Source: Eledone cirrhosa
Taxonomy: Eukaryota
Assembly (NCBI GenBank): GCA_964016885.1
Contig: OZ024764.1
Coordinates: forward strand, 16,802,001-16,866,000
Direction of reading: 5' to 3'
Length of the DNA: 64,000 bases
Position 1 is the first letter of the stretch; the number at the start of each line of letters is the position of its first letter. Positions 14,722 through 53,169 of the stretch are shown piece by piece. The translations under genes were made by a program, and so were the position numbers. The notes below the pieces were generated by a model that saw only the letters and a list, made by a program, of their open reading frames with translations, had not been told where the DNA came from and searched no databases.

Positions 14722-15384
14722 TCACGTGGTGGGGAAAGGATTGAACCCGTAGGACGGCTGCGGGTAGTTGGTGTACTGGGACATGCCGACAGGGACCGGC
14801 TGGTTGGGCGGTGGTGGTGCAGAGAGCATGTCATAGGGGACACCCTGGAAGCCAGGAGCATCAGAGGTGGGTGGGACTGATGTGGTCGGGACCGATGTGG
14901 TAGACGGAGCGCCAGCAGATGTCGGCGTGCCCGAGTACTCAGAACCTTTCCCTGGGGCGCTGCCTACACTGGTAGGACCCATGCTTGGCGTGACAGGCAT
15001 CTGGCCGTAGTCACTCGTGTTAAATATCGGTTCAGGTTTCACATAAGATGAATCAGTGGTGGCAAGTTGTTCTGGGAAGTTGTTGGGTGTATGAATGGCC
15101 AAAGAATAATCTCCGACCTCTCTTTTCGGTGTCTTCAGCTTCCTGCCAGTGGCGGGAGTGGTGGTGCTGATGGCTCCCATCTCCATTTCCTCAATCTTAA
15201 TCACCTTTTCCGTCTTGACCTTCAGGTCAAGGTCAGGGAAACAGACCTCGCTGTCATCAAGGGTCTTTATTTTTCCAACCAAGAAGTCCCTCAGCCTTCT
15301 CAGGGCCACATAGAATGGGACCTTGTCAATGGCCCTCGGCAATTGGGAGCAACGAGCACTGGATGACGGCATCACAAAGACAGT
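14722..15384 (-). CDS. TDG: G/T mismatch-specific thymine DNA glycosylase, last coding exon
   Basis: TVFVMPSSSARCSQLPRAIDKVPFYVALRRLRD... (family-2 UDG motif MPSSSAR) followed by a long low-complexity tail. ttctag acceptor, TGA at 14724-14722. Confidence 0.93.
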   Translation of the reverse strand, partial: TVFVMPSSSARCSQLPRAIDKVPFYVALRRLRDFLVGKIKTLDDSEVCFPDLDLKVKTEKVIKIEEMEMGAISTTTPATGRKLKTPKREVGDYSLAIHTPNNFPEQLATTDSSYVKPEPIFNTSDYGQMPVTPSMGPTSVGSAPGKGSEYSGTPTSAGAPSTTSVPTTSVPPTSDAPGFQGVPYDMLSAPPPPNQPVPVGMSQYTNYPQPSYGFNPFPTT

Positions 15385-16023
15385 CTAGAAATATATAAAT
15401 TGATAAATAGAAATATATACACAGGAAAATATAGTTGCCACAATACAGATACCTACAATAATAGTGACAACCATAAATAATGCTTAGATAAATATAAACA
15501 CTTTATTAACCCTTTCATTACCATATTTCTAATGAAAGACACTGTTGGTGTTTGGAACATAACTTAACAAAGGTTCTTACATTAAATTATGATGGAAGGT
15601 TTTCTACCATCTCCATACTTAATTCTAGCTACCCTCCACTCCAGTCACACTCCAATCCACACCAGCCACCCTCCACTCCAGTCACACTCCAATCTTCATC
15701 AGCCACCCTCCACTTCACACTACACCAGTCACACTCCATTCCACACCAGCCACCCTCACTTCACACTACACCAGTCATACTCCACTCCACACCAGCCACT
15801 CTCACTTCACACCACACTAGTCACACTCCACTCCACACCAGCCACCCTCACTTCATACCACACCAGCCACCCTCACTTCACACCACACCAGCCACCCTCC
15901 ATTCCACACCAGCCACCCTCACTCCAGTCACACTCCACTCCACACCAGCCACACTCCATTCCACACCAGCCACACTCCACTCCACAACAGCCATCCTCAC
16001 TCCAGTAGTTATACTATACTCAC

Positions 16024-16100
16024 AATTTCAGTACCCTCAAGTTTGTCAGGTTGTTTACCAAAGATGAACTTTTTGCTTCCACTGAAGATTTCATAAATAC
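16024..16100 (-). CDS. TDG: TDG coding exon ((G)IYEIFSGSKKFIFGKQPDKLEGTEI)
   Basis: tttcag acceptor and gtgagt donor. Matches TDG IYEIFS...FGxQP. Confidence 0.92.
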
Positions 16101-16314
16101 CTGAAACAGAACAAACACAGGGAGATGATGGCAGTAGTTTTTTCTCACTATTTAACATATTAATGTATACCATAATTTTCCTTCAGCTGGTATCTTAACC
16201 TATTGACTGCCGTGCATATTTTACACAGCTACATTTGCTGTGCTGGGTTGTTTTTCAGTAAAATGACTATTTTGATTGACAGATGTCACATCAATAAACT
16301 AGTAACCCCATCTA

Positions 16315-17068
16315 GCTTTGAAGTTATGAACTGTTGGAAAGGAGTTCATAATTTTGAAGTTATGAACTGTTGGAAAGGAGTTCATAACTTTGAAGTTATG
16401 AACTGTTGGAAAGGAGTCCATAACTTTGAAGTTATGAACTGTTGGAAAGGAGTTCATAACTTTGAAGTTATGGACTGTTGGAAAGGAGTTCATAACTTTG
16501 AAGTTATGAACTGTTGGAAAGGAGTTCATAACTTTGAAGTTATGAACTGTTGGAAAGGAGTCCATAACTTTGAAGTTATGAACTGTTGGAAAGGAGTTCA
16601 TAACTTTGAAGTTATGAACTGTTGGAAAGGAGTCCATAACTTTGAAGTTATGAACTGTTGGAAAGGAGTTCATAACTTTGAAGTTATGAACTGTTGGAAA
16701 GGAGTCCATAACTTTGAAGTTATGAACTGTTGGAAAGGAGTTCATAACTTTGAAGTTATGAACTGTTGGAAAGGAGTCCATAACTTTGAAGTTATGAACT
16801 GTTGGAAAGGAGTTCATAACTTTGAAGTTATGAACTGTTGGAAAGGAGTTCATAACTTTGAAGTTATGAACTGTTGGAAAGGAGTTCATAACTTTGAAGT
16901 TATGAACTGTTGGAAAGGAGTTCATAACTTTGAAGTTATGAACTGTTGGAAAGGAGTTCATAACTTTGAAGTTATGAACTGTTGGAAAGGAGTTCATAAC
17001 TTTGGAGTTATGAACTGTTGGAAAGGAGTTCATAACTTTGAAGTTATGGACTGTTGGAAAGGAGTTCA
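16315..17068. repeat. 36-bp minisatellite (about 21 copies) with internal palindrome
   Basis: Unit GTTCATAACTT-TG-AAGTTATGAAC-TGTTGGAAAGGA. Confidence 0.95.
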
Positions 17069-17248
17069 AACATGTTAGGACGAGTTATCTCATCTACGGC
17101 ACCGAAGAGGTTAATGATGCCCTTCCTTACACCAACCACATTTATAGTGTTGACTGGGAACTTTTTAACGTGTTACCTAATATATATATATAATTAACTG
17201 TATATGTGTATGTATAAGAAACGAGATAAAAGGCTGTTTTCTTTTTAC

Positions 17249-17331
17249 CTTTGCCATTAAATACAGCAATTTTGGGACCATAAAATTTCAATTTTTCTAA
17301 CAACTGCTTTCCACCTTCTTTGATTTCTTTC
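17249..17331 (-). CDS. TDG: TDG coding exon (KEIKEGGKQLLEKLKFYGPKIAVFNGK)
   Basis: ttccag acceptor, G|gtaaaa donor, conserved IAVFNGK. Confidence 0.93.
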
Positions 17332-17439
17332 CTGGAATTAAAAGGTAAATATATAGATTGCTATGTTAGACTTTAATAGAACAGAGGTAGATAAATGAAC
17401 AAGTAAACAGACAGACAAATACATAGATAGATAGGCTTG

Positions 17440-50672: not shown

Positions 50673-50859
50673 TTAACTCACTGATATAGCTTATTGAGTA
50701 CCTCCAATTGAGTATATTAACACACACTTGAATATATATATATATACACATATATATACATATGTATAGACCTACTATTCATATTGATATATATATTTAT
50801 ATACTCACAATACACACATAGACACACACACACAAAGGCACCACACAGTAACATACGCC

Positions 50860-51680
50860 AATATATATATATATATATATAAACACACAAATAGACAGCA
50901 ATATATATATATACACACACAAATAGACAGCAATATATATATATATACACACACACAAAGGCACCACACATACAATAAATACACACACACACATTTAGAC
51001 AGCAATATATATATATACACACACACACACACACATTTAGACAGCAATATATATATATATATACACACACACACATTTAGACAGCAATATATATATATAT
51101 ACACACACACACATTTAGACAGCAATATATATATATATACACACACACACATTTAGACAGCAATATATATATATATACACACACACACACATTTAGACAG
51201 CAATATATATATATATATATATATACACACACATTTAGACAGCAATATATATATATATACACACACACACATTTAGACAGCAATATATATATATATACAC
51301 ACACACACATTTAGACAGCAATATATATATATATACACACACACACACATTTAGACAGCAATATATATATATATATATATATATACACACACACACACAT
51401 TTAGACAGCAATATATATATATATATATACACACACACACATTTAGACAGCAATATATATATATATATATATATACACACACACATTTAGACAGCAATAT
51501 ATATATATATACACACACACATTTAGACAGCAATATATATATATATACACACACACACACATTTAGACAGCAATATATATATATATACACACACACACAC
51601 ATTTAGACAGCAATATATATATATATATATACACACACATTTAGACAGCAATATATATATATATATATACACACACACAC
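50860..51680. repeat. Compound minisatellite ATTTAGACAGCA(AT)n(AC)n in the SMIM4-BRAWNIN spacer
   Basis: About 20 copies of a constant core with variable AT/AC run lengths. Confidence 0.9.
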
Positions 51681-51707
51681 AAGATTTGTTTGTAAAAGAA
51701 GCAGACA

Positions 51708-51815
51708 ATGCCTGCCGGAGTATCTTGGGGCAGCTACATCAAACATGCTGTGACAGCCATGTTTTTCATGATGGCCGGGTCACAGACGGTCCACTTGATT
51801 TACAGACCCCTAGAT
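51708..51815 (+). CDS. UQCC6: BRAWNIN/C12orf73/UQCC6 (Sloth2) coding exon 1
   Basis: MPAGVSWGSYIKHAVTAMFFMMAGSQTVHLIYRPLD matches MPAGVxxxxY......MxAGxxxVHxxYRP. GAT|gtaagt donor. Confidence 0.92.
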
Positions 51816-52009
51816 GTAAGTATTGCATTGATTCTGTTTCTTCACATATATTCAATCATCATCATCATCATCATCAACATCGTCATCATCATTACGTCCA
51901 TCTTTCCATGCTTGCATGTGTTGGGCAGGTCCTTTCCAGCACAGCATCTCTCCACTTTCCAGCTTCCTTCTTCATCTCCTCTGTCCAGCTTCATCAATTT
52001 GAGATCATA

Positions 52010-52195
52010 CCTAGTTTTCCAAGAGCCCACCAGATGATGGAGCGAGGGACTCTGTCAAAGGCTTTCTCCAGGTCTACAAAAGCTAAGTAGAGGGGTTTAC
52101 TTTTAGCTAGGTACTTCTCTTGTAGTTGTCGTACAAGGAAAAGAGCGTCTGCGGTACTTTTACCTGACACAAACCCAAACTGCATTTCATCTTGG
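52010..52195 (-). mobile_element. RTE-clade LINE RT fragment in the BRAWNIN intron
   Basis: EMQFGFVSGKSTADALFLVRQLQEKYLAKSKPLYLAFVDLEKAFDRVPR. Confidence 0.85.
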
Positions 52196-53058
52196 GCAAG
52201 GTCGGCTTGTATCACCTCACCTTTCCATGCTAGCACGGGTGAGACGGGTTGCCCTCTTTGAGGCAAGTTGGGGTCAAGTGACCATGTCTTGCTCATACAG
52301 GACTGTTTCTAGCTAGGTTTCTATGATTGGTTGTCCTTCCTAATGCCAACCATATTTATAGTGTGGACTGGGTGCTTCTTGTCGTGACACCTACACGACC
52401 ACATTACAGTGTGGGCTGGGTGTTATATATATATATATATATATATATATATACTAGTGAGGTACCCAGCTTCACCTGGATAAACAGATAAGAGAAGACT
52501 GGTATTTTATATATATATATATATATATATATATCAAATAATTGTTTCTACTTTTGGCACAAGGCCAGCAATTACCCAGTGCATTACTGGTACTTTATTT
52601 TATCGACCCCGTAAGGATGAAAGGCAAAGTCAACCTCGGCGGGATTTGAACTCAGACCGTAAAGGGACGTAACTAGTTAAGATGGGATTAATTCACCATA
52701 ATTGTTTATTGCATTATATATATTTCTGTTACATGGTTATTCATGTGACTTCATCAGGTGCTTACGCAATCATAGATGCAGTTATGCAATCATTGGGATA
52801 TGCTGGTGGCCATGTATAGCTATTCTGAAGTGATGTAGGTCACCATACAGCACTACTGGTTAGGGGCGGGGCTGAGTTTTGTATGTTTGCTTTACCATAA
52901 TGTGGAATTGCCTTTGTTTGAACTGCAGAGGAGTGATGGGAATAAAGTGTGGTGTTGTGTGGTGTTGTGTGGCCTAATGGTTGGATGTGCTTACTATCAT
53001 AATGTTGTAGGTTTGATTCCTGGACTGTTTCATTTTTTACTTTTTTCTTTTTTCTAAG

Positions 53059-53169
53059 GACCTTGATGATTTGATCAAGACCGAAAAGGGTAAAGTTGAC
53101 AGCAGCAGCAGCAGCAGCAGCAGTAACAACAACAATTCAGTCCCAACAGATTCACAAGGGACAGACTGA
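53059..53169 (+). CDS. UQCC6: BRAWNIN/UQCC6 coding exon 2 (DLDDLIKTEKGKVDSSSSSSSSNNNNSVPTDSQGTD*)
   Basis: Strong polypyrimidine tract + taag acceptor, phase 0, 72 aa total. Possible AATAAA at 53775-53780. Confidence 0.75.
   Translation, partial: DLDDLIKTEKGKVDSSSSSSSSNNNNSVPTDSQGTD

What the first reader, a model, noticed from the sequence alone, without database searches (positions are those of the whole stretch)
14722..53169. TDG head-to-head with the Sloth1-Sloth2 unit: possible ancient bilaterian microsynteny
Seen: TDG (-) and SMIM4-UQCC6 (+) are divergent, with no other recognisable gene between them. Established: human C12orf73/UQCC6 is the head-to-head neighbour of TDG on chr12, while SMIM4 is on chr3. 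Inference: TDG<->[SMIM4-UQCC6] is the ancestral bilaterian arrangement, and vertebrates kept UQCC6 beside TDG when the bicistron split.
Basis: partly seen in the sequence, partly recalled or inferred. Interest (0 to 1): 0.72.

Follow-up and report, generated by a model that had tools for sequence, protein, structure and literature searches.

The report
Ancient gene pair split by duplication
In this octopus-like genome the DNA-repair gene TDG faces a two-in-one mitochondrial gene (SMIM4 plus UQCC6), as it does in two other invertebrates; the layout is likely ancient, and jawed vertebrates likely split the two-in-one gene by keeping one half on each copy after genome duplication.

Summary
Observation confirmed. 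TDG (-, 451 aa) and SMIM4 (77 aa) followed by UQCC6 (72 aa) (+) diverge; each gave one match in the genome, and no gene was found between them. The same divergent layout occurs in two other animals from metagenome contigs (L017/L019, L033; likely non-mollusc lophotrochozoans, phylum not fixed). Published tables suggest how vertebrates split the unit. Hagfish has HSP90B1-C12orf73-SMIM4-PBRM1-GNL3 in one row. Jawed vertebrates hold STAB2-NT5DC3-HSP90B1-UQCC6-TDG-GLT8D2 on one chromosome and STAB1-NT5DC2-SMIM4-PBRM1-GNL3-GLT8D1 on a paralogous one. This fits reciprocal loss of one ORF per copy after whole-genome duplication (inferred). Against: TDG is on another chromosome in hagfish and on different scaffolds in 4 of 4 informative arthropods; amphioxus, hemichordates, echinoderms and cnidarians were not tested. 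One transcript and a shared promoter (candidate 36.85-37.27 kb) are not shown here, as no RNA holder was listed. The bicistron is published. My searches found no paper on the TDG link or the duplication route. The scan earlier saw the pair beside another gene in one arthropod. A new member of a known kind (ancient head-to-head microsynteny).

The parts
14722..29519 (-). TDG coding region, 8 exons (29519-29494, 26336-26199, 25585-25420, 20042-19973, 18349-18217, 17331-17249, 16100-16024, 15384-14722), 451 aa, with GxNPG and MPSSSARC motifs
   Evidence: tree; single match
34497..34553 (-). Likely internal 5' exon of TDG (strong acceptor, GT donor); holds an ATG at 34513 that is either an upstream ORF or an alternative start
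   Evidence: no RNA support
36850..37270 (.). Candidate shared (bidirectional) promoter: four CCAAT/ATTGG at 37141, 37150, 37160, 37195, ETS-type CCGGAAGT at 37210, YY1-like ATGGCGGC near 36883, GC-type donor candidate after 37269 on +; no other genome match apart from a microsatellite
   Evidence: motif names recalled; function not shown
37901..45600 (.). Tandem repeats: a 101-bp array (37901-38495) and a ~1.9-kb AT-rich satellite with CpG-rich cores; the core also occurs on at least 6 other contigs. Would lie in the first intron of the SMIM4-UQCC6 unit if the candidate promoter is right
49849..50672 (+). SMIM4/UQCC5/Sloth1, exons 49849-50002 and 50593-50672, 77 aa; the ATG directly follows an acceptor-like site, which implies an upstream non-coding exon
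50673..51707 (+). 1,035-bp spacer between the two ORFs, mostly an AC/AT tandem repeat; one ATG (50762), one AATAAA, no good GT donor; intron or exon unresolved
51708..53169 (+). UQCC6/C12orf73/Brawnin/Sloth2, exons 51708-51815 and 53059-53169, 72 aa; best named hit Octopus bimaculoides (83%)

Best explanation
TDG and the SMIM4-UQCC6 unit face away from each other here and in two other invertebrates, likely because they have been neighbours on a shared promoter since the bilaterian ancestor, and jawed vertebrates likely split the unit by losing one ORF from each copy after whole-genome duplication. Shown: the layout in this genome, L017/L019 and L033, and the vertebrate gene orders in published tables. 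Inferred: the pre-duplication vertebrate block was about STAB-NT5DC-HSP90B1-UQCC6-SMIM4-(TDG, PBRM1, GNL3)-GLT8D, with TNNC1 close by. One gnathostome copy kept HSP90B1, UQCC6 and TDG; the other kept SMIM4, PBRM1 and GNL3. Hagfish resolved its duplicates differently: the whole unit stayed with HSP90B1 and PBRM1, and TDG was kept beside TNNC1 on another chromosome. Sampled arthropods lost the link. Inferred: a CCAAT/ETS-type bidirectional housekeeping promoter holds the pair together because a break between them would strip one gene of its promoter; no shared biochemical pathway is needed. From Drosophila (PMC9681215): the two ORFs are read from one mRNA by leaky scanning and act together in complex III assembly; not shown for this animal.
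For: TDG lies on the opposite strand upstream of SMIM4 in 3 of 68 metagenome loci, from 2 distinct animals: L017 (E 1e-46), L019 and L033 (E 4e-11). In L017 a strong minus-strand donor at 4071 lies about 260 bp from the SMIM4 ATG, with CCAAT/ATTGG at 4175 and 4210; L033 has ATTGG at 1803 and 1830. Their TDG falls in a 29-row lophotrochozoan group (98/93) and with annelids and a brachiopod (98/89). Gnathostome block A is STAB2-NT5DC3-HSP90B1-C12ORF73-TDG-GLT8D2 (PMC6976628 supplement figure text; chicken). Block B is GLT8D1-GNL3-PBRM1-SMIM4-NT5DC2-STAB1 (sheep). GLT8D1/2 share one orthogroup and NT5DC2/3 another, all labelled CLGE in vertebrates; chicken chr12 0.69-0.79 Mb against chr1 54.73-54.80 Mb (PMC10972751 file 6). 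Hagfish chr3 has HSP90B1, C12orf73, SMIM4 (53 bp apart), PBRM1, GNL3. Lamprey has HSP90B1 and PBRM1 23 kb apart on chr46, and TNNC1 and a GLT8D 32 kb apart on chr14. Hagfish TDG is next to TNNC1, and chicken TNNC1 is 0.1 Mb from NT5DC2 on chr12. 24 of 26 intron-less contigs hold both ORFs 1-100 nt apart. The CCAAT cluster is one of two stretches in 32.5 kb of unmasked window with three or more boxes in 60 bp.
Against: Hagfish TDG is unlinked. Different scaffolds in Procambarus, Cylas, Ceutorhynchus and Penaeus chinensis, judged by scaffold length. Of 9 locus groups with 2 kb or more upstream, 2 have TDG, 2 have another gene (GDPD in L039, Mob1/phocein in L045) and 5 have nothing identified. 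AU tests on L017 TDG rejected no placement (cephalopod p 0.41, arthropod 0.28, deuterostome 0.20, annelid 0.27). The vertebrate data do not fix TDG directly next to SMIM4; it could have lain beyond PBRM1-GNL3. In the 'CLG' column of file 6, HSP90B1, PBRM1, NT5DC and GLT8D carry four different labels, and amphioxus tdg is drawn with asic/esyt/gbx, so the wider block looks assembled later. No good minus-strand donor for a first TDG exon was found at the candidate promoter, and a rival GT donor for a SMIM4 5' exon exists at 48519.
Confidence: 0.72

Rival explanations
1. The link is old but loose: TDG lay a few genes from the unit in the vertebrate ancestor (beyond PBRM1-GNL3), and the direct UQCC6-TDG adjacency of jawed vertebrates arose again when the genes between were lost after duplication.
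For: In hagfish PBRM1, not TDG, follows SMIM4. Lamprey TNNC1 and GLT8D sit together on chr14 apart from HSP90B1-PBRM1. No vertebrate row seen shows SMIM4 directly beside TDG.
Against: It needs the same divergent layout twice; L017 shows the two 5' ends within about 260 bp. The simpler reading is loss of TDG from the hagfish chr3 copy.
Confidence: 0.15
2. The link is a lophotrochozoan novelty, and the vertebrate UQCC6-TDG adjacency is a coincidence.
For: Absent in 4 of 4 informative arthropods and in hagfish; invertebrate deuterostomes untested; the finding was picked from a large scan; the wider block is not conserved in this genome (HSP90-family hits lie on C22, C19 and C4, not C25).
Against: Chance adjacency of two given genes is about 1e-3 to 1e-4 (my estimate). 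Randomised gene orders gave 0.015 conserved pairs against hundreds observed, though under a four-lineage rule that this pair has not been shown to meet (PMC3514665 passages).
Confidence: 0.08
3. The ancestral link is real, but SMIM4 left by transposition rather than by reciprocal loss after genome duplication.
For: Recalled: human SMIM4 faces NT5DC2, the opposite orientation to the one the block model predicts, so at least one local rearrangement is needed. No remnant ORF was looked for.
Against: SMIM4 still sits beside PBRM1-GNL3, its hagfish neighbours, among paralogues of the genes that flank UQCC6.
Confidence: 0.05

Closest known systems
Drosophila sloth1-sloth2 bicistron (Bosch et al. 2022, PMC9681215; section 5, passages and supplement 1 read)
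   Same: Same two ORFs in the same order; reported linked in fly, choanoflagellate, sea squirt and lamprey, unlinked in jawed vertebrates.
   Different: That paper has no mention of TDG or synteny (0 hits) and says only that the ORFs became unlinked. Here the spacer is 1,035 bp rather than 5 nt, and one transcript is unproven.
Conserved ancestral microsyntenic pairs, 5'-5' class such as HSPD1-HSPE1 (Irimia et al. 2012, PMC3514665; passages read)
   Same: Unrelated genes kept head-to-head across phyla, likely on a bidirectional promoter.
   Different: One partner is a two-ORF unit that later split. Seen in 2-3 lineages here, under that paper's four-lineage rule. Its pair list could not be read, so it may already hold TDG-C12orf73.
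Vertebrate tdg syntenic block (PMC6976628; passages and supplement figure text read)
   Same: Lists C12orf73 next to TDG in several jawed vertebrates.
   Different: No SMIM4 (0 hits in the supplement), no protostomes, no link to the block that holds SMIM4.
Reciprocal loss / subfunctionalisation after whole-genome duplication (duplication-degeneration-complementation; recalled)
   Same: Each duplicate keeps part of the ancestral function.
   Different: The parts divided are two whole ORFs of one mRNA, not enhancers or domains.

Membership tests
TDG (UDG family 2, PF03167) | UDG domain with GxNPG and MPSSSAR motifs; groups with animal TDG | tested here: met
   83% over 230 columns to P0223, whose cluster holds Sepia TDG
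SMIM4/UQCC5 (PF15114) | Score above the Pfam cut-off | tested here: met
   87.3 bits against 27
UQCC6/C12orf73 (PF14990) | Score above the Pfam cut-off | tested here: met
   54.7 bits against 27
sloth1-sloth2 bicistron | SMIM4 directly upstream of UQCC6 on the same strand | tested here: met
sloth1-sloth2 bicistron | Both ORFs on one mRNA with a short spacer | tested here: inconclusive
   Genomic spacer 1,035 bp, no good donor; no transcript data for this animal; met in 24 of 26 intron-less contigs of other animals
Conserved ancestral microsyntenic pair | Unrelated genes adjacent with no gene between | tested here: met
   (exons under 45 aa would be missed)
Conserved ancestral microsyntenic pair | Linked in four or more major lineages | tested here: inconclusive
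   Cephalopod, an unplaced lophotrochozoan group and jawed vertebrates; unlinked in hagfish and 4 arthropods; other phyla untested
Bidirectional promoter pair | Two start sites within about 1 kb, on opposite strands | not testable with these tools
   Motifs and splice signals only
Whole-genome-duplication paralogon | Several paralogue pairs in matching order on two segments of one ancestral linkage group | tested here: met
   NT5DC2/3 and GLT8D1/2 share orthogroups and the CLGE label; STAB1/STAB2 by name only; gene trees not built

The most novel reading that the evidence does not exclude
A CCAAT/ETS bidirectional promoter has tied the base-excision and demethylation enzyme TDG to the complex III assembly bicistron since the bilaterian ancestor, and the vertebrate genome duplications resolved that three-ORF unit in two opposite ways: jawed vertebrates cut the bicistron and kept UQCC6 on the TDG promoter, while cyclostomes kept the bicistron and parted it from TDG. 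The old promoter would still co-regulate DNA repair and respiratory-chain assembly in humans.
Probability: 0.3. Interest if true: 0.68.

Novelty: new member of a known kind. Interest (0 to 1): 0.5.

Why it matters
It gives a concrete route for a change that the sloth paper left open: how a bicistron found from choanoflagellates to lamprey became two genes in jawed vertebrates. Hagfish would be a living intermediate, making this a clean, testable case of gene fission by reciprocal loss after genome duplication. It also adds a likely ancient head-to-head pair that synteny screens could miss because both ORFs are under 80 aa, and it warns that edits or methylation changes at the TDG promoter may also affect UQCC6.

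Tried and rejected
Sequencing runs: no RNA holder listed; two lay-downs of contigs showed no splice joints and say nothing on expression. Accession adjacency as a synteny test: TDG accessions were obtained for hemichordates, echinoderms, Owenia, Lingula, Lineus and a chiton, but no SMIM4/UQCC6 partner from these species was returned, so no test was possible; Halocaridina and Penaeus indicus were uninformative (short scaffolds). Supplements: brittle star paper PMC11310086, 0 hits in 3 files, one file unreadable; amphioxus PMC8321703, 0 hits; PMC3514665 supplements not held; file 6 of PMC10972751 is cut, with no row for TDG, SMIM4 or C12orf73 in the stored part. These unseen tables could confirm the link or show it already listed. 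Literature searches: 'C12orf73'+'TDG', 4 papers, none evolutionary by abstract or passages; four or more of SMIM4/C12orf73/NT5DC2/NT5DC3/GLT8D1/GLT8D2, 0; STAB/NT5DC/GLT8D pairs, 1 unrelated paper; SMIM4+C12orf73+'whole genome duplication', 0; 'brawnin'+'bicistronic', 7 listed, listing seen only apart from PMC9681215; TDG 0 hits in PMC7066179 and PMC13508932. Viral and prokaryote scans gave 3 weak matches, not examined further and taken as chance. The Atlas gave no result. PF08701 in the own genome rang nowhere and is uninformative. 100 kb of flanks were fetched and their ORFs listed, but not scanned against Pfam; no neighbour was recognised by eye among the 40 longest. A putative TDG exon at 28751 was rejected (no donor; partial duplicate at 27.2 kb). 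The GC-type donor at 50611 was rejected because the frame runs on like the homologues. L051 upstream ORFs were scanned for TDG only, not Pfam.
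Full report
Source. The window lies on a 29-Mb contig of a 3.0-Gb genome. UQCC6 is closest to Octopus bimaculoides, and TDG pairs with a cluster that holds cuttlefish TDG, so the animal is likely an octopus (inference).

Observation. TDG is intact on the minus strand, 451 aa from eight exons. Its start at 29519 matches cephalopod N-termini, which makes the exon at 34553-34497 a likely 5' exon. SMIM4 (77 aa) and UQCC6 (72 aa) follow on the plus strand and pass Pfam cut-offs. Each gene gave one match in the genome. No gene was found between them: 0 of 98 ORFs scanned reached a cut-off (113 listed, 15 repeat copies dropped), and Rfam found none. The interval is mostly repeats.

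Promoter and transcript. The SMIM4 ATG follows an acceptor-like site, so a 5' exon should lie upstream. A stretch at 36.85-37.27 kb with no other genome match carries four CCAAT/ATTGG boxes within 59 bp against 0.15 per 100 bp in unmasked sequence, an ETS-type site and a GC-type donor candidate (motif names recalled; my score does not penalise GC donors). This suggests a shared promoter with the repeats in a first intron. It is not shown: no good donor for a first TDG exon was found there, and another donor lies at 48519. Whether both small ORFs share one mRNA here is open, as the 1,035-bp spacer has no good donor.

Other invertebrates. A metagenome scan with a SMIM4 alignment gave 68 loci. 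tblastn and a TDG profile found TDG in 3 of 68, always upstream and divergent: L017 and L019 (one animal) and L033. Most loci are too short upstream or are transcripts. Among 9 groups with 2 kb or more upstream, 2 have TDG, 2 have another divergent gene (GDPD, Mob1/phocein) and 5 show nothing identified. In L017 the likely first TDG donor is about 260 bp from the SMIM4 ATG, with CCAAT boxes between. The two TDGs form a long-branch pair inside a lophotrochozoan group, next to annelids and a brachiopod (60 rows), but AU tests on 27 rows rejected no placement. They are likely annelids or another lophotrochozoan phylum, and not close to the octopus. The bicistron itself is widespread: 24 of 26 intron-less contigs hold both ORFs 1-100 nt apart. 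In four arthropods with large scaffolds, TDG and SMIM4 lie on scaffolds of different length. An earlier scan note (e1-9512540, unchecked) found another gene facing the pair in an arthropod.

Vertebrates. The figure text of PMC6976628's supplement lists STAB2-NT5DC3-HSP90B1-C12ORF73-TDG-GLT8D2-HCFC2-NFYB for several jawed vertebrates and c12orf73 beside the tdg pair on zebrafish chr25 (species assignment read from flattened figure text). A chicken table agrees. A sheep table gives GLT8D1-GNL3-PBRM1-SMIM4-NT5DC2-STAB1. In the hagfish paper's source data (PMC10972751, files 5 and 6, rows read), GLT8D1/2 form one orthogroup and NT5DC2/3 another, all labelled CLGE in vertebrates. Hagfish chr3 reads HSP90B1, C12orf73, SMIM4, PBRM1, GNL3, with 53 bp between the small genes: the union of the two gnathostome blocks. 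Hagfish TDG is on chr10 beside TNNC1, a gene that in chicken lies 0.1 Mb from NT5DC2. Lamprey has HSP90B1 with PBRM1 on chr46 and TNNC1 with a GLT8D on chr14; lamprey TDG was not in the stored rows. Strands are not in these tables; human strands are recalled.

Reading. Each vertebrate row is close to a subset of one ancestral block. The simplest history is an ancestral TDG facing SMIM4-UQCC6, duplication, then reciprocal loss: UQCC6 stayed with TDG and SMIM4 with PBRM1-GNL3 in jawed vertebrates, while hagfish kept the unit and parted TDG. I put the split by reciprocal loss at about 0.9 and the ancestral direct adjacency at about 0.8. The weak points are the missing invertebrate deuterostomes, the unfixed position of TDG within the vertebrate block, and signs that the wider block was assembled late (four different 'CLG' labels; HSP90-family genes off this contig).

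Known and new. The bicistron, its leaky-scanning translation and its unlinking in jawed vertebrates are published (PMC9681215). Ancient head-to-head pairs are a known class (PMC3514665; pair list unread). My searches (and in-paper checks 6, 60, 97) found no report of the invertebrate TDG link or of the duplication route, within a library that lacks most subscription papers. Verdict: real, likely ancient, a new member of a known kind with a useful mechanistic addition; interest 0.5.

Noticed in passing
window 2200-4700 (-): Exons of a dynein light chain roadblock (DYNLRB)-like gene, recognised by eye from translations, with a 48-bp tandem array in an intron; it is the nearest gene seen on TDG's 3' side.
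   Followed up: no
L017 6715-6963: If the apparent intron is spliced, the SMIM4 stop codon overlaps the UQCC6 start (TGATG), a stop-start overlap that suggests reinitiation rather than leaky scanning.
   Followed up: partly
window 38500-45600: About 1.9-kb satellite unit: near-pure AT runs around CpG-rich cores with 14 NRF1-like GCGCATGCGC-type palindromes; related cores form clusters on contigs C2, C3, C4, C8, C13 and C14. Origin unknown.
   Followed up: partly
window 34497-34513 and 29494-29564 (-): TDG has two possible starts: an ATG in the upstream exon is in frame if the next exon is skipped or a second acceptor 8 nt downstream is used, and otherwise forms a short upstream ORF.
   Followed up: partly
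window 26726-27240 and 28120-28754: A stretch of about 500 bp duplicated within a TDG intron; likely a repeat fragment.
   Followed up: no
window 51997-52308 (-): Fragment that looks like a LINE reverse transcriptase, by eye, in the UQCC6 intron.
   Followed up: no
L039 2027-2929 (-); L045 922-1464 (-); L048 387-1144 (-): In other animals the unit faces different divergent neighbours, a GDPD-domain gene or a Mob1/phocein gene; the unit may tend to sit on bidirectional promoters whatever the partner.
   Followed up: partly
PMC10972751 file 5, hagfish chr3 121.55 Mb: MBD4, the other G:T mismatch glycosylase, lies about 1 Mb from the hagfish SMIM4-C12orf73 unit; probably incidental.
   Followed up: no
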